Origin: a phage
Strand: one strand, 5' to 3'
Sequence record: PZ379178.1
Length of the DNA: 46,856 nucleotides
Shown here: piece after piece, positions 8,021 to 46,340 of the stretch
Layout: each line of letters begins with the position of its first letter
Position numbering within the stretch: position 1 is the first letter of the stretch
The notes under the pieces: generated by a model
Told to the model about the DNA's origin: nothing
Databases searched by the model: none
What the model saw: only the letters and a program-made list of their open reading frames with translations
Translations under genes and position numbers: made by a program

Positions 8021-8036
8021 TGGGGCTATTTTTATG
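8000..8036. terminator. Bidirectional terminator between convergent blocks
   Basis: Hairpin AGCCCC-GTAAT-GGGGCT flanked by A-run upstream and T-run downstream. Confidence 0.6.
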
Positions 8037-8367
8037 CAAACAATTCGTCATCACTCATGTTGGCTATGTTCATCATCTCACTGACGTAATCACTGGACCT
8101 ACCTTCAAGGCTCATGAATTCAAACTGAAATGGTCGCTTAATTGAACCCTTACACCAGTACACTCCATTAACTCCATCAAGATACCCAGCCGTAAGCATT
8201 CTCGCCATAAACTCCTTCGAGCAACTTGAGGCAAAATACCTTTCATCAACCCCGGCAGCCTTGGCCATCCTTGCGCAATCCTTGTGCTTATAGATGAATC
8301 TTGCCAGGTGCTGGCGGTTGAAGTTCTTGTATCCTTCGCAGAAATTATACAGGTCGAGCAGGTACAT
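8032..8367 (-). CDS. Hypothetical protein
   Basis: 111-aa ORF, last gene of minus-strand block, converges on bidirectional terminator at 8000-8036. Confidence 0.45.
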   Translation of the reverse strand: MYLLDLYNFCEGYKNFNRQHLARFIYKHKDCARMAKAAGVDERYFASSCSKEFMARMLTAGYLDGVNGVYWCKGSIKRPFQFEFMSLEGRSSDYVSEMMNIANMSDDELFA

Positions 8368-8370
8368 AAA

Positions 8371-9954
8371 TTACCCCAGCAATCGTGGATTAATGTAAAT
8401 TTTATCACCAATCAGGCATGTGTAGTTTTTCTCATCAAGCATAGGAATCAAGTGGTCCTTAATGCGAGTCATAATTCCAGCCTGAGCTTCAAAAGGTTTA
8501 ACCTTGCGTGCAGCCTCATACAACGAGCGAACACCAACAACACCTTTACCATTCTTGCCTTGCTTAATCAGGATATCAACCAGCTTGTTCATCTCGGCAT
8601 TGTCACCAGCATGACCAGCAGCACTAGCGGATGATAAATAAGTCTTGCTTAGTTCGTTGAAAATCATAACCGCTTCCTGCATTGTATCCAGTTCAATCTC
8701 TCTTGACTTTTGAGGGCTGGATCCGGCTGGTGAGAACCAGTTACGAATTACGTGCAGAACAGAAGCGATGCGGATTGCTTGCTTATCAAACTTACCAAGA
8801 GCACCGCGCAACATTGTGTGAGAATACTTGCCACCATCACCAAGATGAGGCTCCATCTCTTGACGAGCGCGGTTAAGGTAACGCATTGATGACGCGCTTA
8901 CAGTAAGTTTCGCTTCAACTTCATTCATAATCTCATGAACAAGACGGAAATAGTCTGCTTTCAGGCCGCCATCAATAGCCTCATAGGTTGAATCACCATT
9001 CTCATCAACAAATACGCGCTCACCAAGAAATGACTTCTCACGCACCAGAAGGAAGCGCTCAGATACACCGATACCACGCGCACCGGCATTCATAATGGCG
9101 TTAATTGTTTCATCCTGCGCAATTACAGAGATACAACCCATAGCCACGAAACTCATGTTGTTTTCTGCATTCGCGCGCGCAATAGATACATTACCCGCAT
9201 CCCACGCCTTAAGCACAAGTTCGCTGTTCGTTTTCTTCGAGCCATCACCGTAAGTCATGCCTAACAGTGAGTTGACGCTAGTAGCCTCATCAGAGATTAC
9301 CGCAAAATTACCCTGGCGATTGTTGATTCGCGCAAGACCTTCCGGTGTAGTATCGGAGACAGGGAATACTATATCGCATAGCTTCTCGAGCTTCTCCTCT
9401 AAATCCTCCTTCTCCTCAAAAAGTGAAGCCATTTCAGAAGGTGATTTCTCCTGCTTCATCTCTTTAGCCAGAGCGGACAGTTTAGCCATAATCTTTTTTC
9501 GATCACGTTTACGTACTTCATTCAACCGCTCAGTCTCAGCAATCATCGGCGCAATTGATAGCGAGTTAATGGCTGATTTACCAGTTGAAGGCGGCTGACT
9601 TGTTACCACGTACAAAGATGTTGGCTGTTGGGTTCCATGATACTCGACAGTAAAACGCCCAAGCATTGCAGCAGAAACACAACCAAGAAAGTGCATGTAA
9701 GCTGACGACTCAGGGAACTGAACCGAGCGAGCGATATTAGCCGATAGCTTACCAACAACATCAATATCATTACCGAGTGAGATTACTGGATACTTATCAT
9801 TACCTGTATCAATCTCGACAGGTGCTTTCCAGAACGATTGAGACTGTCGATAGCCATTGGCATTAATAGCCACGCGAAGCGGTGGTAGGTTGTCATTGGC
9901 AGCGATTGCCATAACCTGCTCAACAGATAGTTTATCTTCGTTGAAATCAAACAT
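8371..9954 (-). CDS. P-loop NTPase-like protein of unknown function
   Basis: 527 aa; Walker A-like PPSTGKS and Walker B-like FAVISDEA; promoter box cassette immediately upstream (10011-10026, minus orientation). Confidence 0.5.
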   Translation of the reverse strand: MFDFNEDKLSVEQVMAIAANDNLPPLRVAINANGYRQSQSFWKAPVEIDTGNDKYPVISLGNDIDVVGKLSANIARSVQFPESSAYMHFLGCVSAAMLGRFTVEYHGTQQPTSLYVVTSQPPSTGKSAINSLSIAPMIAETERLNEVRKRDRKKIMAKLSALAKEMKQEKSPSEMASLFEEKEDLEEKLEKLCDIVFPVSDTTPEGLARINNRQGNFAVISDEATSVNSLLGMTYGDGSKKTNSELVLKAWDAGNVSIARANAENNMSFVAMGCISVIAQDETINAIMNAGARGIGVSERFLLVREKSFLGERVFVDENGDSTYEAIDGGLKADYFRLVHEIMNEVEAKLTVSASSMRYLNRARQEMEPHLGDGGKYSHTMLRGALGKFDKQAIRIASVLHVIRNWFSPAGSSPQKSREIELDTMQEAVMIFNELSKTYLSSASAAGHAGDNAEMNKLVDILIKQGKNGKGVVGVRSLYEAARKVKPFEAQAGIMTRIKDHLIPMLDEKNYTCLIGDKIYINPRLLG

Positions 9955-10029
9955 TACTTCTCTCCGTGTTGTTCTGAGCGGCCATTATATCAATAGCCGC
10001 TTATAATGCATTATCAATTAGTGCTATTT
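9955..10029 (-). promoter_or_regulatory. Box-hairpin-leader cassette (minus orientation)
   Basis: Reverse-complement box TAGCACTAATTGATAA (plus coords 10011-10026), hairpin GCGGCT.../...GGCCGC, TATAAT, leader ACGGAGAGAAG; precedes ATG 9954. Confidence 0.5.
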
Positions 10030-10184
10030 AGTAAGATGCAATCTATCTTGTAGTAGTCAAAGTGATTTTCTGAAGATGTTTCTTTGTTATATTTAAACTC
10101 CTGTGCTTTGAATTCTTCATCGAAAGCGGCAATCACTTCGCTTCCATCATAGTGTGTGCAACCACTTACAATGTATAATTTCAT
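10014..10184 (-). CDS. Hypothetical small protein (56 aa)
   Basis: ATG overlaps upstream stop (ATGA); ORF ends NSTN* inside promoter box; below ORF-track cutoff. Confidence 0.3.
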   Translation of the reverse strand: MKLYIVSGCTHYDGSEVIAAFDEEFKAQEFKYNKETSSENHFDYYKIDCILLNSTN

Positions 10185-10570
10185 TTGTATTGAGCCTCAA
10201 AGTGGTAAGTTTCACACAACGTATAAAAGCCAACATCTTCGCTGCGATATAGCTGCCAGGCGTTGCCATCTTCATCGTAAATGTATCCAGCTGACTGACC
10301 AAGTCCGCTATGCATGTTGACCTGGTATCGCTTACCTTCTTTGAAGTCTTTCTTAACGCCAGACTTATGGTTAACCTTTGTGCAGTAAAGAGTTTTGGTT
10401 TTAATGTATTTTCCACGTTCTTCCAGGTTGATCCATTTGCCGTCTTTTTTGATTTGCTCAAATTCAACTTCCTCAGCGACACCGTTAACCCACTGGTGAA
10501 TCTTTTTAACGCGAGCTTTAAATAGCTTGTTGTCGTTGCTAATGAAATTTTTGGTTATCGTAGTAGTCAT
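10181..10570 (-). CDS. Hypothetical protein
   Basis: 129-aa ORF, Lys-rich. Confidence 0.5.
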   Translation of the reverse strand: MTTTITKNFISNDNKLFKARVKKIHQWVNGVAEEVEFEQIKKDGKWINLEERGKYIKTKTLYCTKVNHKSGVKKDFKEGKRYQVNMHSGLGQSAGYIYDEDGNAWQLYRSEDVGFYTLCETYHFEAQYK

Positions 10571-10731
10571 TATTTTAATCTCTTAGTTGTCCACATGAAT
10601 TTGTTTGGTACTGATTTGCGCACAATACGCACAACAATCTTATCAAACTTCTGAACTAAACCGTAAATCTTACCATCTAGCGACGCCCTGAGAACCGCCT
10701 CTTCCATCTCGTCATAAAAGTTGTCGAACAT
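10570..10731 (-). CDS. Hypothetical small protein (53 aa)
   Basis: ORF track extends through promoter box via TTG; ATG at 10731 lies after leader CATCGAAACGAAAGAGAG and is preferred. Confidence 0.4.
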   Translation of the reverse strand: MFDNFYDEMEEAVLRASLDGKIYGLVQKFDKIVVRIVRKSVPNKFMWTTKRLK

Positions 10732-10806
10732 GATCTCTTGCTCTCTTTCGTTTCGATGGAGTAAATATACGCCATCCGTGGCGGTGAGTTTTAGCAATTA
10801 GTGCTA
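10732..10806 (-). promoter_or_regulatory. Box-hairpin-leader cassette (minus orientation)
   Basis: Reverse-complement box TAGCACTAATTGCTAAA (10790-10806), hairpin CGCCACGGATGGCG, leader CATCGAAACGAAAGAGAG; precedes ATG 10731. Confidence 0.5.
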
Positions 10807-10955
10807 TTTTTTCTGGCCTTCTCAATTGCCTTCAACATAATCTCGTGAGACTCAAGCAGGTCCTCGTTAAACCAGTCCCCGCAAGGCCAACCCTTTCCGC
10901 TGTAAGCACTAATTATTTCCAGATCGAAATAGTTTATCTCAGATGGTAAAAGCAT
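10791..10955 (-). CDS. Hypothetical small protein (54 aa)
   Basis: Start overlaps upstream stop (TAATG); ends KNSTNC* inside promoter box 10790-10806. Confidence 0.3.
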   Translation of the reverse strand: MLLPSEINYFDLEIISAYSGKGWPCGDWFNEDLLESHEIMLKAIEKARKNSTNC

Positions 10956-11158
10956 TATTCAATCACCTTAAAAGTTGCGATGCCGTGGATGATTACGTAA
11001 TCAAGGCATTTAAGCGCCTGGAACGTGTCGTGATGCTTGTGTGGACGTTCGCCGGTAACAAGGCACACGTCATCTTTAAACTCGGTAGCGTTGTATTCAG
11101 AACCCTTATTGAAGGCATCGTTAAAGTCTTTAATTACGTTCGTGCAAATTAGCTTCAT
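10955..11158 (-). CDS. Hypothetical protein (67 aa)
   Basis: ATG 11158 with AAGGA SD; longer ORF-track start 11212 overlaps upstream gene. Confidence 0.45.
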   Translation of the reverse strand: MKLICTNVIKDFNDAFNKGSEYNATEFKDDVCLVTGERPHKHHDTFQALKCLDYVIIHGIATFKVIE

Positions 11159-11169
11159 TATCTCATTCC

Positions 11170-11355
11170 TTACCAGGGTAAACATTCGTCGCAGCCGAGG
11201 CCATCGCAGCACAGATATTCATCATCTGACTGGAATTGCTTAGCAAGGTCGATATCGATGCGTCCGCGTAAAACCATATCAGTATAGTCACTGTTCAATC
11301 CAATCAGCGCACATTCCTGCTTTAATTGCTCAAATGCTTCGTCTTTAAGTTTCAT
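11170..11355 (-). CDS. Hypothetical Cys-rich small protein
   Basis: 61 aa with CCDGLGCDEC cluster; first gene after promoter box 11411-11426 at edge of long intergenic region. Confidence 0.45.
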   Translation of the reverse strand: MKLKDEAFEQLKQECALIGLNSDYTDMVLRGRIDIDLAKQFQSDDEYLCCDGLGCDECLPW

Positions 11356-11426
11356 ATCTCTCTCCTCGTTGTTGATGGATTCATTATGGTATCGTCGCCA
11401 GTTTTTGTCATTAGCAAAAAGTGCTA
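11356..11426 (-). promoter_or_regulatory. Box-hairpin-leader cassette (minus orientation)
   Basis: Reverse-complement box TAGCACTTTTTGCTAA (11411-11426), CATAAT, leader CATCAACAACGAGGAGAGAG; precedes ATG 11355. Confidence 0.5.
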
Positions 11427-11440
11427 TTCGTTGGATTTAT

Positions 11441-11548
11441 CTATTGTTGCAGCTATTGCAATGATTATCATGATTATTGCACATATAGCAATATTGCATG
11501 GAATGCAATGATGTTTTTGATTGTTGCAGAATTTGCAATGATTGATGT
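11441..11548. repeat. Iteron-like TTGCA repeat array
   Basis: ATTGTTGCAG-N-TTGCAATGATT at 11443-11467 and 11519-11543, plus inverted repeats ATTGC...GCAAT (11476-11492) and TTGCAT-GGA-ATGCAA (11494-11508). Confidence 0.6.
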
Positions 11549-11705
11549 GGGGTGAATGAATGGTGGATGAACTACCATACAAGTTGATTTTGATTCTTGC
11601 TGAGCCAATTTGGATATACACGTTATCGAAGTTATGGTGTGTATATGAGGTGCGCTTCCGAAGAATCATACACGCCTACCACGCTAGATTACGCAATGGT
11701 TACAT

Positions 11706-11762
11706 AATAATATCTATATATATCAACCTTTTACTATATTATTATTATTATTATATATATGT
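11706..11762. repeat. AT-rich (TTA)n element, copy A
   Basis: TAATATCTATATATATCAACCTTTTACT-ATATTATTATTATTATTATATATAT; near-identical copy at 39501-39556. Confidence 0.8.
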
Positions 11763-12027
11763 ATGTATATGGTGTAGATTGGTCGTATGGATGGGTCGAT
11801 AGTTTTTCTATGAAAACTACTAATTTTATCTATATAGATACATATGCATATCCCCGGCGAATCCGCGTAAAATCTTACACAGGGTAATTACACCAGCTAT
11901 AGCTGGGCTGAGAGGTCAAAAAGCGTAACCAATGCAGATATAAACACAACATAACACTTGATAACGCGTATATTCATGATACCATGGTTTCATCTTAACG
12001 AAGAGCAACCAATCAGGAGTAACGAAT

Positions 12028-12549
12028 ATGTCAGAACATAAAGAAGCAGTAAGTTTGGGTGAAATCATTCGATACATGGCGAGTCAGGCGCTCAAGTCAG
12101 AAGACAAAGTGTGCACAGTCCCTGTGACCATGATTGCTCGTCAATACTTCGGCATGAGTCGTGAGACGTTCGTATCGCTAAGTGGTGAGGAGGTTCTACC
12201 TGGTGGTGAATACCACATGCCAAAACTAAAAGCGTCATACGTTTCAAACACCGTAAGCCGAATGCCTGAGATTAAGGCGGCTGACGTGCGCTCAAGGTTC
12301 TCACTTAGTTTTACCGACTTTGAGGGCGAGAGTGAGACATACTGCGCATCACTTAGCCTGGTTCCTGGCGCTGTAAAATCCGGCTCAAGAAGCAAAGCAG
12401 AGCAAGAGAAGGAGGCGGCTACCATTGAAAGGTTCAAGGCTCGATTGTTGAAACTATCACCAAGCGTCGCTGGTCTTGAAGGTGATGAACTTAAGGGTGC
12501 AGTATCAATGATTAACGCATACCAAGAAATGATTAAGGAGACTAAATAG
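12028..12549 (+). CDS. Hypothetical protein
   Basis: 173-aa ORF, first plus-strand gene after divergent intergenic region A; AGGAG SD. Confidence 0.55.
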   Translation: MSEHKEAVSLGEIIRYMASQALKSEDKVCTVPVTMIARQYFGMSRETFVSLSGEEVLPGGEYHMPKLKASYVSNTVSRMPEIKAADVRSRFSLSFTDFEGESETYCASLSLVPGAVKSGSRSKAEQEKEAATIERFKARLLKLSPSVAGLEGDELKGAVSMINAYQEMIKETK

Positions 12550-16074: not shown

Positions 16075-16150
16075 GTTCTGCTGGCGTAACAGGATAACGC
16101 AAAGACCTCCTAAGTCTTAGTTACTGGTTCGAGTCCAGTGCGGAACACCA
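16075..16150 (+). tRNA. tRNA-Arg (anticodon CCU)
   Basis: Hand-folded cloverleaf: 7-bp acceptor stem (one G-U), U8, 4-bp D stem, 5-bp anticodon stem with loop CTCCTAA (U33, CCT, A37), T arm ACTGG-TTCGAGT-CCAGT, discriminator A and encoded CCA. Confidence 0.8.
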
Positions 16151-16687: not shown

Positions 16688-17212
16688 ATGAAAGACGAAA
16701 ACTTCACCAGTCAGGCGCAAGAAAAGGTCCGCTCTGGCAACTTTAAAGCCATGTACAATAAAAAGTACTCAGACATTACAACGCTAGCCAAAAACCGAAG
16801 CATGACACCCGAACAGCTATTTGAATTCGCCGTGAAATACTTCTCATGGGCTGAGGACCAGGCAATCAAGGCAATCGAGACAGCCAGCTTCCAGGGTGTG
16901 GTAAAAGAGAGCCTGGTGCACAAACCACGAGTCTTCACGCTAACCGGATTCTGCCTTTACTGCGGTGTCACCCATAGCGCCATCGAGAAATGGAGGAAGT
17001 CGGCTGGTTATGATGAGGTGATTGCGTTCATTGATTCCGTGATTCGCGAGCAGAAATACCAGCTTGCAGCATCTGGCATTGTTAACCCTGGCATGATTTC
17101 CAAGGAGCTTGGAATCGACAAACCGCAGGAGATCACTATAAGCAATAACTCTTCTGCTAACGACGTCGAAACGATGAAGGAAGCTCTGGAGTCTGTGATT
17201 AGTAAGCTGTAA
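16688..17212 (+). CDS. Terminase small subunit (putative)
   Basis: 174 aa directly upstream of terminase large subunit, first gene of late block after terminator; AAAGGAGG SD. Confidence 0.5.
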   Translation: MKDENFTSQAQEKVRSGNFKAMYNKKYSDITTLAKNRSMTPEQLFEFAVKYFSWAEDQAIKAIETASFQGVVKESLVHKPRVFTLTGFCLYCGVTHSAIEKWRKSAGYDEVIAFIDSVIREQKYQLAASGIVNPGMISKELGIDKPQEITISNNSSANDVETMKEALESVISKL

Positions 17213-17281: not shown

Positions 17282-18901
17282 ATGCTTCACAACTGGATTC
17301 TTAATTGGCGTGATGGTTGGATTGGTGAAATTATGGCTAATTTAGTTTGGGAGGAAATGACGCCAGCAGAAAAGATGGCGGTTAAGGCGATATCCACTCA
17401 TAGCTTCGAGGGTTTCTTACGAGTGTGGTTCCAGCTTACCCAGGGAGAGCGATACATACCTAACTGGCACCATAGATACCTTTGCAGAATTATCGATGAG
17501 ATTATTGCTGGTGAGCGTAAGGACACAATCATTAACATCGCTCCTGGCAGTGGGAAGACAGAGATTGCCTCAATTCACTTCCCAGCCTACTCAATGGTTA
17601 AGTTGAGAAAGGTAAGGAACCTGAATATATCGTATGCTGACTCACTGGTTAAGCGTAACTCCAAGCGTGTGCGCGACTTAATTAAGTCTGTTGAGTTCCA
17701 GGAGTTGTTCCCATGTAAGTTTGGTACGTGTAAGGATGATGAGCTACAGGTCCTGGATGACTATGGCAAGGTCAGGTTTGAGTCAATCTCTAAAGCCACT
17801 GGCGGCCAAATTACAGGCGCGAGGGGTGGATATATAACCGATTCGTATAGTGGTGCGGTACTGTTAGATGATTTTGACAAACCAGCCGACATGCTTTCTG
17901 CTGTTTTTCGCGCTAACAATCACGTGATGCTAAAGAATACAATACGCTCTCGTAGGGCGAGCTCCGTAAAAGGAAAGGCGACGCCGATTATCTCTATCCA
18001 ACAGCGCCTTCATGTGAACGATAGTACGTGGTTCATGATGAATGGCGGTATGGGTATTAGCTTCGACTTGATTAAAATACCGGCGCTCGTAACTGAGGAT
18101 TACGTCGACACGCTTCCTGACTGGATTAAGCAGCAATTCATTGATGACGTTCTATCAAGCGAATATATTGAGCGTGATGGTGTTAGGTACTATAGCTATT
18201 TCCCTGGCAAGGAATCTGTTCACGACCTAGTTGCAATGTGGGATTCTGATAGCTATACATTCCTTAGCCAGTATCAGCAAGAACCAGTAGCACTTGGCGG
18301 CAACCTGATTAACGTAGACTGGCTTCAACGCATTAGCGACACTCTGCGACCGCCAGCTAAGTACGATTACAGGTTTATGGTCCTTGATACTGCGATGACA
18401 ACCAAAAGTTACAGCGACTTTAGCGTCATGCAGCTATGGGGTTATAAGGATGGGAAGATTTATCTGCTTGACCAGCGGCGCGGTAAATTTGAAGCTCCTG
18501 AGCTCGAGGCTGAGTTATTGGATTTCGAGAAGATGGCTAGGGCATCCAATCAGATAGATGGCATCCTTCGTAAAATCATCATCGAGAAGAAAGCCTCTGG
18601 TATTGGCCTGATTCAATCAGCCGGAAGGGTTATGCGAACGCCTATCGAGCCGTACGTTCCGGATAACGATAAGCTGACTCGCGTAATGAGTGCATTGCCG
18701 CAGATTAAAGCTGGTAACGTAATCCTTCCGGAGTCTGCTACTTGGCTTAATGGCTTGCTAACGGAGATTGCGGCATTCACGGCAGATGATTCACATGTTC
18801 ACGATGACCAGATAGACTGTTTGACAATGGCTGTCAACCTGGTACTGAACATTGCAGAAGACCCTAAATCGAGGATGATGCGCCTCGCTGGCATCAAATA
18901 G
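17282..18901 (+). CDS. Terminase large subunit
   Basis: 539 aa; Walker A NIAPGSGKTE near N-terminus, acidic nuclease-type C-terminal half; position before portal; alternative start ATG 17336. Confidence 0.8.
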   Translation: MLHNWILNWRDGWIGEIMANLVWEEMTPAEKMAVKAISTHSFEGFLRVWFQLTQGERYIPNWHHRYLCRIIDEIIAGERKDTIINIAPGSGKTEIASIHFPAYSMVKLRKVRNLNISYADSLVKRNSKRVRDLIKSVEFQELFPCKFGTCKDDELQVLDDYGKVRFESISKATGGQITGARGGYITDSYSGAVLLDDFDKPADMLSAVFRANNHVMLKNTIRSRRASSVKGKATPIISIQQRLHVNDSTWFMMNGGMGISFDLIKIPALVTEDYVDTLPDWIKQQFIDDVLSSEYIERDGVRYYSYFPGKESVHDLVAMWDSDSYTFLSQYQQEPVALGGNLINVDWLQRISDTLRPPAKYDYRFMVLDTAMTTKSYSDFSVMQLWGYKDGKIYLLDQRRGKFEAPELEAELLDFEKMARASNQIDGILRKIIIEKKASGIGLIQSAGRVMRTPIEPYVPDNDKLTRVMSALPQIKAGNVILPESATWLNGLLTEIAAFTADDSHVHDDQIDCLTMAVNLVLNIAEDPKSRMMRLAGIK

Positions 18902-36800: not shown

Positions 36801-37300
36801 ACACTTACGTTACTGCCGATTCAATTGGTGCTCAGTACGGGATTAAACTTGGCCTCAAATACAATGGCGTTGAGTACAGTTCTGGCATGAGTATGGAGCT
36901 AACTGGTTCTGATGGCAATGTTCGTAGTCAGGTCATCTTTGATGCTAACAGGTTAGCAATCAGTAACGGCATTAGCTCTGGATCCGGTCAGTGGTCATTG
37001 CCTTTCGTAGTTGAAGGTAATCAGGTATTCATTCAAAGCGCAGTGATTCAGGATGGTTCAATCACTAACGCGAAGATTGGTAACCGGATTCAATCTAATA
37101 ACTACGTGGCTGGTTCTCAGGGTTGGGCCATTGATAAGTCAGGCAGTGCGGAACTTAACAATGCAACTGTAAGGGGTAGTCTGTACGCAAGTAACGGCAA
37201 CTTTGCGTTTAACGGAACCAACAACACTGTTCAGATTAACAATAATGGAATTACAGTTAATTTACCGAATGGTGGAAGGGTTGTAGTTGGAGTGTGGTAA
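33875..37300 (+). CDS. Host specificity / central tail fiber protein (gpJ-like)
   Basis: 1141 aa, last and largest gene of tail-tip cluster after I-like gene. Confidence 0.75.
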   Translation: MAQMVKTNAELCDMAEEIKIYGSKGGQPKQHQPVEQPDNLISVNKVKVLLAVSDGEVDSSFSLKDLYLADVPVQNQNGTYNYEGVTAEFRPGTQSQDYIAGLEGANSEVQVNREIKNSTPYIIAVNNTQLSAIRVKLFWPRLINQESNGDLNGTTCEYAIDLSVDGATYTEYTRGVANGKTTSGYDRSIRVNLPAEFSSALVRVRKITADSESSTLVNDMQITTYQEVIDAKFRYPLTALVYVEFSSDLFPNGIPTISIKKKWKLIRVPTNYNPETRTYSGTWNGTFKMAYSNNPAWVLYDLVTNQRYGLDQRELGITIDKWGLYEAAQFCDQMVPDGKGGVEPRYLCDVVIQQKVEAYQVIRDICSIFRGLTFYDGEQIGIVVDKPRQPSYVFTNDNVVDGLFNRTFGSDKSLYTVANVQFDDVENSYQQDVEPVFELEATRRFGYNPVDLTAIGCTRRSEANRRGRWLLKTNIRSETISFTTGLEGMIPMIGEVIAVNDQAWSSNYTLNLSGRIESVSGLQVFVPFKIDATAGDRILINKPDGMPEYRTIASVSEDGMTLQLNTAFSFTPQPDTVFAIDKENLALQQYVVTGIQKADSDGDDAFGYTITAVEYDPNKYDEIDYGVNIQDRPTSIVEPDTLLAPENVQVSSYSKVVQGLSVETMVITWDKVQYAKTYTVQWRKENGNWINVPRTASTEVDIEGIYAGIYQVRVRAVSDTENVSAWSDIVSVSLTGKIGTPSSPTVITASDDEIFGIRVKWGFPENSADTSYTELQQVADNGDGTYTPENASLLTLVPYPSYEYWHTTLPAGKVIWYRARLIDKIGNVSPWTDFVRGMASDDVSSIIGDIKVDIENSDGFKYLQQNAIESNGAIQAQAESIIENALANDGDVRRMTKENGKRKAEFVQAVNLIADEERARVEALTQLKAQIDDEIVASLTRIDTALAEETQARTTADTALSARLGDNEAALNEKLDTYVTADSIGAQYGIKLGLKYNGVEYSSGMSMELTGSDGNVRSQVIFDANRLAISNGISSGSGQWSLPFVVEGNQVFIQSAVIQDGSITNAKIGNRIQSNNYVAGSQGWAIDKSGSAELNNATVRGSLYASNGNFAFNGTNNTVQINNNGITVNLPNGGRVVVGVW

Positions 37301-38538: not shown

Positions 38539-38622
38539 TTTAGTATTCCCTAGAATGTGTGTTTCGTTTCAATGGAGTAATGATATCTCATCATTGAGAT
38601 TTGTCTTTAGCTATTCGTGCTA
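38539..38622 (-). promoter_or_regulatory. Box-hairpin-leader cassette (minus orientation)
   Basis: Reverse-complement box TAGCACGAATAGCTAAA (38606-38622), hairpin, leader CATTGAAACGAAACACAC; precedes lipoprotein gene ATG 38538. Confidence 0.5.
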
Positions 38623-39291
38623 TTTACTTTCCAGTAACAGCTTAATGTCGATACCAAGTTTATTCTCGATCAATCCGGTCAGTGCGTCCGTCTTTTCTTT
38701 AAGAGCAAAGCATTGCGTTTCATACTTAAACCTTGCTTCCATTTCATCGGAACGTGATGCCCAAGACTGCCGAGCCTCGCAAGCAAGCATATCTAGTTTT
38801 TCATCTGTATTCTTATCCATGAGAAGGATTTCATTGATTCGCTGCTCAGCAACGATTCGCTGACTAAGGTGAGCGTTCTGCGCATTAGCCACACCAAGCA
38901 TCATGCGTGCCTCTTTTAGCTCATCAATACTAACCATCTTGCTGATTACTTCCTGTTGAGTGTTAATGGTTTGCTGCATCTCTTTTAGCTTGTTTAGAAC
39001 CGAACGACGAACAGACTTTGACTCACGCATTCCGACAAGAAGCATTTGCTCCATATTAAGCACTGGTGAGTTGATCGACTTTCTATAACCACCTCTTCCC
39101 TCACTTTTGATTACGAAACTTTCGTAGTCAAACTCAAACCCCTCAATCTCATCCTCTATCCTCTCAACAAAGTCATTGTGTCGAACATCAGATTCACCAG
39201 CAACTAACCTCGCTGGGTTGATAACTTCATTCAAAAACTGATAACTGTTCATTTTCACATCTTCATTTAGTAGAGCTAGGTTCATTTTCAT
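38620..39291 (-). CDS. Rha-like phage regulatory protein (putative)
   Basis: N-terminal SYQFLNEVINPARLVAGESDVRHNDFVERI resembles Rha-family N-domain, coiled-coil C-terminus; start 39291 after AGAGAG SD. Confidence 0.4.
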   Translation of the reverse strand: MKMNLALLNEDVKMNSYQFLNEVINPARLVAGESDVRHNDFVERIEDEIEGFEFDYESFVIKSEGRGGYRKSINSPVLNMEQMLLVGMRESKSVRRSVLNKLKEMQQTINTQQEVISKMVSIDELKEARMMLGVANAQNAHLSQRIVAEQRINEILLMDKNTDEKLDMLACEARQSWASRSDEMEARFKYETQCFALKEKTDALTGLIENKLGIDIKLLLESK

Positions 39292-39380
39292 CTCTCTTTT
39301 TTTATTCTGGCTAAGCACCATTGCCGCCATGCGCACAAATATACCCAAATACTGCATCTTGTCTTTAGCAAATCGTGCTA
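39292..39380 (-). promoter_or_regulatory. Box cassette (minus orientation)
   Basis: Reverse-complement box TAGCACGATTTGCTAAA (39364-39380), TATATT, AAAAAAAGAGAG SD; precedes Rha-like gene. Confidence 0.45.
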
Positions 39381-39500
39381 TTTATCGCAAATTTACCCAT
39401 AAATCATGGTTACGCGTAATCGATGTAACTCGATGTATACCATATGCATCCGCGGGAAATCGTATACGCCTAGTTACGCCAGTTTACGCCATAGTTACAC

Positions 39501-39556
39501 TATAATATCTATATATATCAACCTTTTACTCTTATTATTATTATTATATATATTAC
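39501..39556. repeat. AT-rich (TTA)n element, copy B
   Basis: TAATATCTATATATATCAACCTTTTACT-CTTATTATTATTATTATATATAT; 28-nt core identical to 11708-11735. Confidence 0.8.
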
Positions 39557-39871
39557 TGTGTATATCATGTAACTACTGTTCTGGAGTGTTCCGGTTATAA
39601 TTTTTATATCATGTGATTTTATACAGTATTGCGCAGCACCTATACCTATGCACCCTCCGCTAAAATCGGTATACACGGTATACTCACTATTTACATTGAG
39701 CTATAGCTTGGCTTAAGTGGCGAAAAACGTAACTCATGCCAATGTCTACACGTAGTTACAAAATTATACGCGTATACTTGATTAATTAATAGGTGATACC
39801 AATTGGACTATGCGTTGTGCGTACGGCATCATTAACTCATCGAAAGCACGCAACAATAGAGAGATAGAGAA

Positions 39872-40066
39872 ATGCCATACTTCATTATTAAAGAGAAAAA
39901 CAACGCACTGTTCGGCGATTGCTACTTTGGTGGCCCCGCTGGATATACAGTTCACAAATCTGAAGCGGACCGATTCGATAGCAAGGAAGAGGCAAAATCT
40001 ATTCTGACAGGATATTTCACTGAGGAAGATTTGAAAGCTGTTAAGATTGTTAAAATTAAGGATTGA
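39872..40066 (+). CDS. Hypothetical small protein
   Basis: 64-aa ORF, first plus-strand gene after divergent region B, preceded by leader CATCGAAAGCACG...AGAGAG. Confidence 0.45.
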   Translation: MPYFIIKEKNNALFGDCYFGGPAGYTVHKSEADRFDSKEEAKSILTGYFTEEDLKAVKIVKIKD

Positions 40067-45792: not shown

Positions 45793-45860
45793 AGTTACCT
45801 CCATAAACAATAAAGGCACTATACACAATGTATAGCGCCACTGTTTATCAATTCGTGCTA
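45793..45860 (-). promoter_or_regulatory. Box-hairpin-leader cassette (minus orientation)
   Basis: Reverse-complement box TAGCACGAATTGATAAA (45844-45860), palindrome CTATACATTGTGTATAG, GGAGG SD; precedes primase ATG 45792. Confidence 0.5.
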
Positions 45861-46340
45861 TTTCCCTTGCTCTTTATCTTTTCGTGCTGCTTCGTTAGCG
45901 GCCTTAATCTTGCGCCATGAGCGACACTCTGGTTTAGTTGCTAGCTCAGCCTCAGTAACAACACGCAGCATATGACGCTTCTTGCAACGTAGAGTTAGCG
46001 GTTTCCCGTTACCGTCGAATTGCAGATCTGGTCGGCAGAATGTAGCGCGAAAACCTTCTCCATTTCGCTTATAGTAGTTGTGCGACAACTGAGCGCCACG
46101 CGCAGAAATCATCCCGCGATCAAACCATTGCTCTACAGTCTGGTGAGATACATTTAACTGCTTGGCGATATTGGCCTTCGTGCCGTAGAAATCAAGAACC
46201 ATCTCCAGACGAGCTCGTAGCCCAGCCTTTACTTCATCTTTCAATACGTAGTAGCCTGACGGTCGTTTGCGCTGTTTCTTGTCTTGCGTGCGGATGGTTC
46301 CGTTATTGCCGTTGATAGTTCGCTTGTCAATTTCACACAT
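45858..46340 (-). CDS. HTH-type DNA-binding protein (putative regulator)
   Basis: 160 aa, basic; TKANIAKQLNVSHQTVEQW resembles helix-turn-helix. Confidence 0.45.
   Translation of the reverse strand: MCEIDKRTINGNNGTIRTQDKKQRKRPSGYYVLKDEVKAGLRARLEMVLDFYGTKANIAKQLNVSHQTVEQWFDRGMISARGAQLSHNYYKRNGEGFRATFCRPDLQFDGNGKPLTLRCKKRHMLRVVTEAELATKPECRSWRKIKAANEAARKDKEQGK

What the first reader, a model, noticed from the sequence alone, without database searches (positions are those of the whole stretch)
11356..12027. Long divergent intergenic region A with TTGCA iteron array and AT-rich unwinding-like element: origin or bidirectional control region candidate
A 670-bp non-coding region separates the minus-strand block (8032..11355) from the plus-strand block (12028 onward). 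It contains direct repeats ATTGTTGCAG...TTGCAATGATT about 76 bp apart, inverted TTGCA/TGCAA repeats, a perfect palindrome TATCTATATAGATA, and a (TTA)n/TA-rich stretch at 11706-11762. Iterons plus an AT-rich DNA-unwinding element is the classical layout of replication origins; the same features could instead serve divergent early promoters and operators.
Basis: partly seen in the sequence, partly recalled or inferred. Interest (0 to 1): 0.65.

Follow-up and report, generated by a model that had tools for sequence, protein, structure and literature searches.

The report
T1-like phage packaging-start and control region
This 670-bp gap is the conserved "genome-end" junction of a T1-like coliphage: the TTGCA repeats most likely mark where DNA packaging starts rather than a replication origin, and the AT-rich half is a control module found twice in the genome that remains the better, untested origin candidate.

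Summary
The window is a T1-like phage (Drexlerviridae), 98.6% identical to phages ES and AN_ECEAS.

**The "TTGCA iterons".** They are four 15-bp palindromes, TTGC-N7-GCAA, at 11447, 11477, 11494 and 11524.
- They occur as a cluster nowhere else in the window.
- Across ten relatives the half-sites are invariant and the centres vary, which is a protein-binding signature.

**Genome ends of relatives map just to their right.**
- MSK PhageTerm forward terminus = window 11575.
- SU57 end = 11591/92, Rao1 = 11566/67, and CEB_EC3a and ZL19 = about 11610.
- T1's annotated terminal repeat and the restriction-mapped pac of TLS start in the same junction.

So the left third is best read as the pac (packaging initiation) site, with packaging running rightward towards terS/terL.

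**The edges.** They carry conserved outward sigma-70-type promoters. The left one sits beside a known T1-family 21-nt repeat.

**The AT-rich right part (about 11600-11990).**
- It holds the least stable DNA in the window.
- It has four 10-bp-phased ACGC repeats and an IHF-consensus site.
- It is paralogous to a second intergenic region (39385-39880).
- It is either an early control module or an origin; this is unresolved.

**Verdict.** This is a new member of a known kind, of moderate interest.

The parts
11383..11411 (-). Leftward sigma-70-type promoter (-35 ATGACA, 17-nt spacer, -10 CATAAT) for the 11355<- operon
   Evidence: Consensus scan scores 10 of 12. The GTCAT of the -35 is invariant in 10 relatives. 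Function is inferred.
11411..11427 (-). One copy of the T1-family oriented '21-nt repeat' (TTAGCAAAAAGTGCTAT, i.e. ATAGCACnnnTTGnTAA on the transcribed strand), lying directly upstream of the leftward -35
   Evidence: 15 copies in the window against 0.34 expected. It matches the TLS repeat aaATAGCACnnnTTGnTAAAA, whose function is unknown (PMC11447400). It is also present at the T1 and TLS junctions.
11433..11445 (+). GGATTTATCTATT: a 9/9 match to the P22 pac core GATTTATCT. GATTTAT is conserved in the 10 non-T1 relatives aligned (T1 lacks it)
   Evidence: Read directly from the sequence and the alignment. The P22 pac sequence is as quoted in PMC11447400. TerS here belongs to the P22 gp3 family. 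This is a weak lead with a chance probability of about 0.07-0.1.
11443..11545 (.). Array of four 15-bp palindromes TTGC-N7-GCAA (11447-61, 11477-91, 11494-508, 11524-38) in two 47-bp units. Proposed pac recognition element
   Evidence: Half-sites and inter-site spacers are invariant and the centres variable in 10 relatives. The cluster is unique in the window and, as a pair, in T1.
11567..11613 (+). Zone where virion or record DNA ends of relatives map. Proposed pac cleavage zone, with packaging proceeding rightward
   Evidence: MSK PhageTerm forward terminus 36,862 equals window 11575. SU57 end/start falls at 11591/92, supported by PhageTerm and a read-depth step. Rao1 falls at 11566/67. CEB_EC3a and ZL19 end at about 11610-13.
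11585..11603 (+). Degenerate copy (84%) of the spacer plus left half-site of palindrome 4, on the packaged side of the cut zone
   Evidence: family D6 (family D3). Conserved in most relatives.
11611..11646 (.). Left arm of a long-range inverted repeat (core ATACRCGTTAT...GTTAT). Its partner is 11940-11976
   Evidence: pairs I2 and I6. The same pair, 348 bp apart, flanks the module in region B (pair I2). Conserved in relatives.
11670..11704 (+). Four short repeats phased at about 10 bp (ACACGCC, CCACGC, TTACGC, TTACAT), abutting the AT-rich stretch. These are iteron-like
   Evidence: Read. Conserved in window A, window B, Rtp A and Rtp B and in 10 relatives. TTAC[AG]C is enriched: 10 of 54 genome copies fall in the two modules against 1.06 expected (a post hoc choice of motif).
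11704..11763 (.). AT-rich core (90% A+T): TAATAATATCTATATATATCAACCTTTTACT, then (TTA)n and (TA)n. It contains the IHF core consensus TATCAACCTTTTA at 11721-11733
   Evidence: It is the least stable 60 bp of the window. The IHF pattern occurs 4 times in the window, and two identical copies sit in modules A and B. The core is nearly identical at 39496-39560.
11750..11778 (-). Leftward promoter-like site inside the AT-rich module (TCTACA-17-TATAAT)
   Evidence: scores it 10 of 12. An equivalent TATACA-16-AATAAT exists in region B. Low-complexity context, so function is uncertain.
11827..11840 (.). Perfect palindrome TATCTATATAGATA. Not conserved and probably incidental
11940..11976 (.). Right arm of the long-range inverted repeat. 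It overlaps the -35 and spacer of the rightward promoter
   Evidence: pairs I2 and I6.
11958..11985 (+). Rightward early promoter: -35 TTGATA, 16-nt spacer, extended -10 TGnTACCAT. It is followed by the RBS AGGAG and the start codon at 12028
   Evidence: The -35, the TG and the -10 are conserved in relatives as TACTAT, TATTAT or TAATAT.
39385..39880 (.). Region B: a paralogous copy of the right-hand module (inverted-repeat arms, four 10-bp-phased TACGCC repeats, identical AT/IHF core, GCTATAGCT), lying upstream of the recE/erf/ssb block. It lacks the TTGC-N7-GCAA array
   Evidence: 76% column identity over about 430 bp. It is the second least stable DNA in the window. It is also present in Rtp, and more weakly in T1 and TLS.
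16688..17212 (+). Small terminase (TerS), P22 gp3 family. Candidate binder of the pac element
   Evidence: phrog_606 at 1.6e-57. PF16677 at 1.4e-12.
17282..18901 (+). Large terminase (TerL)
   Evidence: phrog_38 at 7e-107.
8371..9954 (-). DUF3987 helicase with a C-terminal winged-helix domain. Candidate origin or iteron binder

Best explanation
The region is the conserved genome-end junction of a T1-like, headful-packaging phage. It is composite, with three functional parts.

**1. Left third (about 11430-11613): the pac site.**
- Terminase, most likely through its P22-gp3-type small subunit, is proposed to recognise the unique array of four TTGC-N7-GCAA palindromes, possibly together with the adjacent GATTTATCT box.
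- It would make the first cut of the concatemer 30-75 bp to the right of the array.
- It would then package rightward, through the small early genes and terS/terL.

**2. The two edges: outward-facing host-RNA-polymerase promoters for the two divergent early operons.** The leftward promoter sits beside a copy of the family's 21-nt repeat.

**3. Right 400 bp: a module that occurs twice in the genome.**
- It consists of inverted-repeat arms, four 10-bp-phased ACGC repeats, an IHF-consensus site and the most easily melted DNA of the genome.
- It probably organises early divergent transcription, and it may also serve as a replication origin.

**What is shown and what is inferred.**
- Shown: the sequence features, their conservation, their uniqueness or duplication, and the mapping of relatives' published ends onto these coordinates.
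- Inferred: which protein binds which repeat, that cleavage in this particular phage occurs at the same place, and promoter activity.
For: **Identity of the phage.** The window is 98.6% identical to phages ES and AN_ECEAS and is related to Rtp and T1.

**Ends of relatives map here.**
- The T1 RefSeq record annotates a 2800-bp terminal repeat that starts at position 1, which lies in the homologous junction directly at T1's own pair of TTGC-N7-GCAA sites.
- The pac of TLS was restriction-mapped, via a submolar fragment, to the same junction.
- PhageTerm on MSK reports headful pac packaging in the forward direction starting at 36,862 (PMC8421802), which equals window 11575.
- The SU57 end was chosen from PhageTerm plus an abrupt read-depth change (PMC7718038) and equals window 11591/92.
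- Rao1 is opened at 11566/67. CEB_EC3a and ZL19 end at about 11610.

**The array behaves like a single-locus protein-binding element.**
- There are 7 sites in the window against 1.84 expected, four of them within 92 bp.
- Half-sites are invariant while the centres vary in 10 relatives from four subfamilies or genera.
- In TLS the same position holds two copies of a different palindrome, TAGACCGATTGGTCTA.
- Palindrome type follows TerS clade in 37 further loci.

**A headful-type terminase is present.** TerS belongs to the P22 gp3 family, and TerL is identified.

**Promoters.**

**Duplicated module.**

**Non-coding and not a known RNA.**
Against: - There are no read or terminus data for this phage itself. 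All termini are transferred from relatives that are 73-89% identical in this region.
- Several records (Rtp, OzMSK, IMM-001, and probably T1 and TLS at base-pair level) were opened here by convention or by similarity to P22 pac, so they are not independent.
- PhageTerm classed MSK as 'type unknown' and failed on OzMSK and KanT1.
- Palindromic 15-bp sites are more typical of dimeric HTH regulators than of the asymmetric pac site of P22. No result links TerS to the array.
- The TerS-versus-motif comparison does not discriminate between TerS and other proteins.
- The array lies on the non-packaged side of the cut.
- The function of the duplicated module is not resolved.
Confidence: 0.6

Rival explanations
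1. The TTGCA array is a set of replication iterons bound by a phage initiator. The AT-rich stretch at 11704-11763 is its DNA-unwinding element. The region would be the replication origin.
For: - The clustered repeats are real and conserved.
- The AT-rich stretch is the least stable DNA in the window.
- A helicase with a C-terminal winged helix is encoded 1.4 kb away.
- No origin is known for T1-like phages: searches for oriC-like or lambda-like origins found none in SU57 or TLS.
Against: - The sites are palindromes spaced 30/17/30, not same-orientation phased iterons.
- They are about 160 bp from the AT-rich stretch, with the conserved end-mapping zone in between.
- The AT-rich module also exists without any TTGC-N7-GCAA array at 39385-39880, so the two elements are separable.
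- The helicase and gp10-like protein are closer between this phage and TLS (71% and 68%) than between this phage and T1 (57% and 55%). Yet this phage shares the palindrome with T1, not with TLS. This is a weak argument.
Confidence: 0.1
2. The duplicated AT-rich module (A: about 11600-11990; B: 39385-39880) is the replication origin system, in two copies as in the ori/crr pair of satellite phage P4. The 10-bp-phased ACGC/TTACRC repeats would be iterons for the winged-helix domain of the DUF3987 helicase (or another phage protein). IHF would bend the DNA, and the (TTA)n/(TA)n stretch would melt. This reading is compatible with the pac interpretation of the left third.
For: - Four repeats phased at about 10 bp directly abut the least stable and second least stable DNA of the window. 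This arrangement is conserved in window A and B and Rtp A and B.
- Family-specific short motifs are concentrated in the two modules. The window has TTAC[AG]C in 10 of 54 copies against 1.06 expected. T1 has TGT[TA]ACA in 6 of 6 genome copies. TLS has GTGAACA in 4 of 8 copies.
- GTGAACA is the core of the annotated P4 type-1 ori repeat TGTTCACC, which occurs at both ori and crr.
- The primase shares the P4 alpha N-terminal zinc motif (E 5e-12).
Against: - The motifs were chosen post hoc.
- Both copies sit between divergent early operons, where shared promoter or regulatory architecture is expected anyway.
- The helicase shows no sequence similarity to P4 alpha, and the P4 origin-binding domain was not among the top 60 structural hits.
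- The IHF pattern is not enriched window-wide (4 found against 3.35 expected).
- GC skew only follows gene orientation.
Confidence: 0.25
3. The TTGC-N7-GCAA array is an operator or enhancer array for a dimeric phage or host transcription factor that controls the leftward promoter just beside it. The clustering of genome ends nearby would be coincidental, or governed by a different, nearby sequence such as the GATTTATCT box.
For: - The 15-bp palindromes have conserved half-sites 11 bp apart, the classic footprint of HTH dimers.
- The array begins 36 bp upstream of the -35 of the leftward promoter.
- Its shape, T-T-GCA-N5-TGC-A-A, resembles the genome-wide 21-nt repeat T-A-GCA-N5-TGC-T-A.
- The phage encodes a conserved HTH regulator (45858-46340).
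- A P22-pac-like GATTTATCT lies next to the array.
Against: - The array occurs at only one place in the genome, whereas promoters are many and the 21-nt repeat has 15 copies.
- Region B has the same leftward promoter arrangement without the array.
- The array lies upstream of -60, an odd place for repression.
- The ends map within 30-75 bp of it in several independently sequenced relatives.
Confidence: 0.15

Closest known systems
pac / left genome end of coliphage T1 (NC_005833) and of TLS (AY308796)
   Same: Same divergent junction, between the leftward small-ORF/helicase arm and the rightward small-ORF arm that leads to terS/terL. T1 carries two TTGC-N7-GCAA sites 30 bp apart at record position 1, where its 2800-bp terminal repeat is annotated. 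T1 also has the 21-nt box, an AT-rich (TA)n block and a rightward promoter. TLS has the same layout.
   Different: This phage has four palindromes instead of two. TLS uses a different palindrome (TAGACCGATTGGTCTA, two copies). In the papers I could search, the pac sequence of T1-like phages is not defined at nucleotide level. For TLS it was guessed from a 6-nt similarity to P22, and for SU57 it was 'not identified'.
pac sites built from clustered short repeats next to the cut (P1 pac hexamer repeats plus IHF; SPP1 pacL/pacC/pacR; lambda cosB R sites plus IHF). Recalled from memory, not tested here
   Same: Several copies of a short recognition motif lie within about 100 bp of the cleavage zone. 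A degenerate copy lies on the other side of the cut (11585-11603). An IHF-consensus site lies nearby. There is only one such locus per genome.
   Different: The motif here is a 15-bp palindrome. The IHF-like site is about 130-150 bp from the cut and belongs to a duplicated module. No biochemical data exist.
P22 / Sf6 pac sites (same TerS family, PF16677)
   Same: TerS is homologous. A 9-nt identity to the P22 pac core, GATTTATCT, lies at 11435-11443 (P22 sequence as quoted).
   Different: In P22 and Sf6 the pac site lies inside the terS gene and is a single asymmetric sequence (from memory). Here the ends map 5 kb upstream of terS, in an intergenic region beside a palindrome array.
Satellite phage P4 ori / crr (NC_001609)
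   Same: Two separated loci carry multiple short repeats next to AT-rich DNA. The TLS module motif GTGAACA equals the P4 type-1 repeat core. The primase has a P4-alpha-type zinc motif.
   Different: The window's motif is TTAC[AG]C, not TGTTCACC. The helicase is unrelated in sequence to P4 alpha. A winged helix is present, but only a generic one. Both modules are also promoter regions.
T1-family intergenic 21-nt repeat (aaATAGCACnnnTTGnTAAAA; TLS paper PMC11447400)
   Same: The copy at 11411-11427 is a member of this family. It is oriented with leftward transcription and lies about 60-70 nt upstream of the start codon.
   Different: None. It is a bystander to the array, although its palindromic shape resembles the array unit.

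Membership tests
pac (packaging initiation) site of a headful phage | First-headful virion DNA ends map at or next to the site, with one packaging direction | tested here: met
   Met by transfer from relatives only. MSK PhageTerm forward terminus equals window 11575. SU57 equals 11591/92. Rao1 equals 11566/67. The T1 terminal repeat starts in the junction. The TLS restriction-mapped pac lies in the junction. No data exist for this phage itself.
pac (packaging initiation) site of a headful phage | Single locus per genome | tested here: met
   The TTGC-N7-GCAA cluster occurs only at 11447-11538. The other three isolated sites in the window lie inside the tape-measure gene and are consistent with chance. 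T1 has one pair only.
pac (packaging initiation) site of a headful phage | The phage encodes a headful-type terminase (TerS and TerL) | tested here: met
   TerS matches phrog_606 and PF16677 (P22 gp3 family). TerL matches phrog_38.
pac (packaging initiation) site of a headful phage | Specific binding by TerS and cleavage by TerL at the site; the site is sufficient for packaging or transduction of a plasmid | not testable with these tools
   Requires EMSA or footprinting and a pac-plasmid transduction assay.
Iteron-type replication origin (lambda, plasmid or P4-like) | Several same-orientation repeats in helical phase that bind the initiator | tested here: not met
   This result is for the TTGCA array. 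Its units are palindromes, 3 of 4 extended sites are on one strand and one on the other, and the spacing is 30/17/30. A different set does meet the layout: the ACGC repeats at 11670-11704, phased at 9-10 bp.
Iteron-type replication origin (lambda, plasmid or P4-like) | Adjacent easily melted AT-rich element | tested here: met
   Positions 11704-11763 are 90% A+T and have the lowest duplex stability in 46.8 kb. This stretch abuts the ACGC repeats, not the TTGCA array.
Iteron-type replication origin (lambda, plasmid or P4-like) | Origin activity or an early copy-number peak; initiator binding | not testable with these tools
   Requires marker-frequency sequencing, 2D gels and binding assays. GC skew is uninformative because it follows gene orientation.
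P4-type ori/crr system | Alpha-type primase-helicase with a C-terminal origin-binding winged helix that recognises TGTTCACC repeats at two loci | tested here: inconclusive
   The primase shares the alpha zinc motif (E 5e-12). The helicase shows no similarity to alpha. The helicase C-terminus is a winged helix, but the hits are generic and the P4 domain is not in the top 60. The window motif is TTAC[AG]C, while TLS has GTGAACA.
Divergent early promoter / control region | Outward-facing promoters conserved at both edges, directly upstream of the first genes | tested here: met
   Searches give consensus matches that are conserved across relatives. No transcript data are available.
T1-family 21-nt intergenic repeat | Match to aaATAGCACnnnTTGnTAAAA, oriented with transcription, tens of nt upstream of a start codon | tested here: met
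   11411-11427 is an exact core match among 15 copies in the window.

The most novel reading that the evidence does not exclude
The junction would physically couple two genome-maintenance functions. The first is a palindrome-array pac site. Immediately beside it would be one of two copies of a bipartite, P4-like origin system (ori/crr analogue). In that system, 10-bp-phased TTACRC/GTGAACA-type iterons would be bound by the winged-helix domain of the DUF3987 helicase, with IHF bending and melting of the (TTA)n/(TA)n core. If so, this would locate the unknown replication origin of T1-like phages. It would also explain the stand-alone 'mini-helicase' paralogues (N-terminus plus winged helix) encoded next to the junction in other Drexlerviridae, as regulators of initiation.
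Probability: 0.2. Interest if true: 0.65.

Novelty: new member of a known kind. Interest (0 to 1): 0.42.

Why it matters
**pac site.**
- T1-like phages are classic headful packagers and generalized transducers, and notorious laboratory and fermenter contaminants.
- In the papers I could search, their pac site is placed only roughly and its sequence is guessed or 'not identified'. No origin has been found.
- A nucleotide-level candidate for pac recognition (four TTGC-N7-GCAA palindromes plus a cut zone 30-75 bp away) is directly testable.
- It would help genome-end annotation, phage engineering, and the design of packageable plasmids or transduction tools.

**Duplicated AT-rich module.** Recognising that this iteron-like module occurs twice per genome, and is conserved from Rtp-like phages to T1 and TLS, gives a concrete place to look for the origin. 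It also bears on the function of early control regions.

Tried and rejected
1. **Hidden small genes.** ORFs 11421-11555(+), 11560-11802(+) and 11424-11669(-) give cross-phage BLASTP matches in all frames. There is no third-position excess of substitutions, and ORF boundaries shift between phages. Rejected.
2. **Known RNA families.** Rfam with permissive thresholds gave only E values of about 0.65-1, far below the gathering scores. Rejected.
3. **Array as sigma-70 promoters.** The only candidate inside it (TTGCTA-16-GATAAT, minus strand) loses its -10 in relatives. Rejected.
4. **Sigma-54, Fur-box and CytR-octamer resemblances.** These were recalled from memory. Either the spacing does not fit or the resemblance is lost in relatives. 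Not pursued.
5. **Which protein co-varies with the palindrome type.**
   - TerS, TerL, the HTH regulator, the gp10-like protein, the helicase and the primase are all 45-71% identical among this phage, T1 and TLS.
   - TerS clade and motif type agree in 37 loci, but so would anything that is inherited vertically.
   - Result: inconclusive.
6. **Sequence search of the helicase, the gp10-like protein and the HTH regulator against PDB.** Nothing significant.
7. **Structural test for a P4-alpha-like origin-binding domain.** A winged helix was found, but only a generic one.
8. **Concerted evolution of modules A and B within a genome.** Not seen in Rtp.
9. **C-free tract as a family-wide marker of the cut zone.** It is clear in TLS (63 nt) but short here. 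Dropped.
10. **The Rtp genome paper.** It could not be retrieved. The T1 genome paper (Roberts et al. 2004) was not looked up. How T1 position 1 was fixed therefore remains unknown to me.
Full report
**What the window is.** The 1.4 kb around the finding is 98.6% identical to Escherichia phages ES and AN_ECEAS. It is related at 74-89% to many Drexlerviridae, including Rtp, IME542, MSK, SU57 and Sd1. Gene content agrees with this assignment:
- a DUF3987 helicase at 8371-9954 (-);
- a DUF7174 protein at 12028-12549 (+);
- tRNA-Arg at 16075;
- TerS of the P22 gp3 family at 16688-17212, and TerL at 17282-18901.

The finding therefore lies at the divergent junction that in T1, Rtp and TLS separates the leftward 'helicase arm' from the rightward small-ORF arm leading to the terminase genes.

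**Checking the observation.**
- The gap 11356-12027 is non-coding. Substitutions among ten relatives show no codon-phase bias in any of its ORFs. Cross-phage peptide matches occur in every frame. Rfam finds nothing.
- The repeats are real. Their unit is a 15-bp palindrome, TTGC-N7-GCAA, present four times (11447, 11477, 11494, 11524) as two 47-bp units.
- The window has 7 such sites against 1.84 expected, with four of them inside 92 bp.
- In ten relatives from several genera and subfamilies, including T1, the TTGC and GCAA half-sites and the spacers between sites are invariant, while the central 7 bp vary. This is the expected signature of a protein-binding array.
- The AT-rich stretch 11704-11763 is 90% A+T and is the least stable 60 bp of the whole window.
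- The palindrome TATCTATATAGATA (11827-11840) exists but is not conserved.

**Where the genome ends fall.** Many GenBank records of relatives begin or end inside this gap.

Some of these are conventions. Rtp, OzMSK and IMM-001 all open at window 11487, next to T1's position 1, which corresponds to about 11492.

Others rest on data:
- The MSK paper reports PhageTerm headful (pac) packaging in the forward direction from position 36,862 (PMC8421802). My alignment places this at window 11575.
- The SU57 authors chose their end from PhageTerm plus an abrupt change in read depth. They state that the pac site of T1-like phages lies in this region but was not identified (PMC7718038). Their end and start map to 11591/92.
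- Rao1 is opened at 11566/67. CEB_EC3a and ZL19 end at about 11610-11613.
- The T1 RefSeq record annotates a 2800-bp terminal repeat from position 1.
- The pac of TLS was mapped to this junction by a submolar restriction fragment. Its exact base was only guessed from a 6-nt similarity to P22 pac (PMC11447400).

The data-based ends thus cluster 29-75 bp to the right of the last palindrome. They sit in a highly conserved block (GGACTACCATACAAGTTGATTTTGATTCT) that is flanked on its right by a degenerate copy of the spacer plus left half-site (11585-11603; family D6, family D3).

**Interpretation of the left third.** Four features fit a pac site, with packaging running rightward towards terS/terL:
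- a single-locus array of binding sites;
- genome ends immediately beside it;
- one packaging direction;
- a headful-type terminase.

In TLS the same position holds two copies of a different palindrome (TAGACCGATTGGTCTA), followed by a C-free GATT-rich tract that contains the record start. Across 37 further loci the palindrome type follows the TerS clade. That agreement does not discriminate TerS from other vertically inherited proteins.

A 9-nt identity to the P22 pac core (GATTTATCT, 11435-11443) sits just left of the array. It is worth noting because TerS is of the P22 gp3 family, but it could be chance. Which protein binds the palindromes is therefore an inference. I estimate about 0.85 that packaging starts in this region and about 0.5 that the array itself is the terminase recognition element.

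**The edges.**
- On the right, TTGATA-16-TGnTACCAT (11958-11985) is a conserved extended -10 promoter upstream of the RBS and the start codon at 12028.
- On the left, ATGACA-17-CATAAT (11411-11383) faces the leftward operon.
- Directly upstream of the leftward -35 lies TTAGCAAAAAGTGCTAT (11411-11427). This is one of 15 oriented copies in the window against 0.34 expected.
- It corresponds to the '21-nt direct repeat' described for TLS, and said there to occur in T1, Rtp and Rogue1. Its function is listed there as an open question.

**The right 400 bp is a duplicated module.** The IHF core consensus TATCAACCTTTTA occurs identically at 11721 and at 39516. Alignment shows that 11596-12030 is paralogous to 39385-39880, the intergenic region upstream of the recE/erf/ssb block. 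Column identity is 76% and the core is nearly identical.

Both copies share:
- inverted-repeat arms ATACRCGTTAT / ATAACGCGTAT, 332 or 348 bp apart;
- four short ACGC/TTACRC repeats phased at about 10 bp;
- the AT/IHF core with (TTA)n and (TA)n;
- a GCTATAGCT palindrome;
- a leftward promoter-like site inside the AT-rich DNA.

Region B is the second least stable DNA in the window, and it lacks the TTGC-N7-GCAA array. Rtp has both copies with the same phased repeats. T1 and TLS show a weaker A/B similarity.

So the array-plus-cut-zone and the AT-rich module are separable units. It exists, but in the module, not in the TTGCA array.

**Is the module an origin?** Short G/C-containing motifs are concentrated in the two modules of each genome. 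These counts are post hoc:
- TTAC[AG]C in this window;
- TGT[TA]ACA in T1, where all six genome copies fall in the modules;
- GTGAACA in TLS.

GTGAACA is the core of the P4 type-1 ori repeat TGTTCACC, which is annotated at both ori and crr of P4. The primase here shares the N-terminal zinc motif of P4 alpha.

That C-terminal domain also occurs in 174-180-aa stand-alone proteins in other Drexlerviridae, such as phiEB49 gp73 and Sf12 gp74. These proteins consist of the helicase N-terminus plus the winged helix, and a gene of that size follows the DUF7174 gene next to the junction in P818 and JulesPiccard.

Against the origin reading: both modules sit between divergent early operons, where a shared regulatory architecture is expected. 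GC skew merely follows gene orientation. I give the origin reading of the module about 0.25. It is compatible with the pac reading of the left third.

**Comparison with known systems.**
- The region is a member of the T1-family genome-end/pac junction, with four palindromes where T1 has two.
- It works most like pac or cos recognition regions built from clustered short repeats near the cut, such as P1 pac, SPP1 pacL/pacR and lambda cosB with IHF. Those are recalled from memory and were not tested here.
- It differs from the P22 and Sf6 pac sites of the same TerS family, which lie inside terS.
- For the classical iteron origin, the TTGCA array fails the orientation and phasing feature.

**Verdict.**
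- Observation: confirmed and refined.
The control-region reading holds. The origin is unproven and was attached to the wrong repeats. The pac function was missed.
- Novelty: a new member of a known kind. It adds a nucleotide-level pac candidate and a duplicated origin-like module, neither of which I found described in the searchable literature.
- Interest: 0.42.

Noticed in passing
window 903, 3133, 5473, 6560, 10011, 10791, 11411, 12657, 13168, 18898, 27322, 39365, 41038, 44802, 46353: There are 15 oriented copies of TTAGCAAnnnGTGCTAT (0.34 expected), always pointing with local transcription. This is the T1-family '21-nt repeat' of unknown function (TLS paper). At 11411 and 39365 it lies directly upstream of a -35-like xxGACA hexamer, which suggests an activator or UP-type promoter element. 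Its shape T-A-GCA-N5-TGC-T-A resembles the pac-array unit T-T-GCA-N5-TGC-A-A.
   Followed up: partly
window 39385-39880: The second divergent intergenic region, upstream of recE/erf/ssb, is a paralogue of 11596-12030 (76% column identity). It has the same inverted-repeat arms, four 10-bp-phased TACGCC repeats and an identical AT/IHF core. It is the second least stable DNA in the window.
   Followed up: yes
window 8374-8600 (helicase C-terminus); proteins P0005, P0006, P0013, P0028, P0041: The C-terminal winged-helix domain of the DUF3987 helicase also exists as 174-180-aa stand-alone proteins in other Drexlerviridae (phiEB49 gp73, Sf12 gp74, BEK2/3, IME253 gp21, Opt-79). These consist of the helicase N-terminal ~45 residues plus the winged helix, without the ATPase core. 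A gene of that size is the second gene to the right of the junction in P818 and JulesPiccard. This window lacks one.
   Followed up: partly
window 38620-39357 (-): The mechanical ORF start at 39357 lies only 8 nt from the 21-nt box and inside the predicted promoter (AAGACA-16-TATATT, 39365-39338). The real start codon is therefore probably further downstream.
   Followed up: no
L001 (OR466728.1, phage ES): Product names in the ES record look shifted or mislabelled. Examples: 'DNA helicase' on 61-67-aa ORFs, 'endolysin' on a 162-bp CDS, and 'capsid maturation protease' on a 240-bp CDS. The real helicase is labelled hypothetical. The record's annotation should not be trusted.
   Followed up: no
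PHROGs identifies it as a DNA repair exonuclease (phrog_704, 4e-148), and Pfam gives no HTH hit.
   Followed up: yes
hits H8 (MG065688.1) and H208 (PQ433353.1): A record named 'Campylobacter phage A110b' carries 586 nt of this T1-like junction at 74% identity. An Enterococcus phage record matches 42 nt at 93%. The first looks like a mislabelled or contaminating coliphage, and the second may be chance or contamination.
   Followed up: no
window 11458-11480: The spacer between palindromes 1 and 2 (AATGATTATCATGATTATT) resembles a Fur box (consensus recalled from memory). Most relatives have TGATTCACATGATTA instead, so this is probably coincidental.
   Followed up: partly
L022 (TLS) positions -120 to +70 around record start: At the position of the TTGC-N7-GCAA array, TLS has two tandem TAGACCGATTGGTCTA palindromes followed by a 63-nt C-free GATT-rich tract. 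The published TLS pac assignment (AGATTT) lies in that tract. The palindromes are not mentioned in the passages of the TLS paper that my term searches returned (I did not read it in full).
   Followed up: partly
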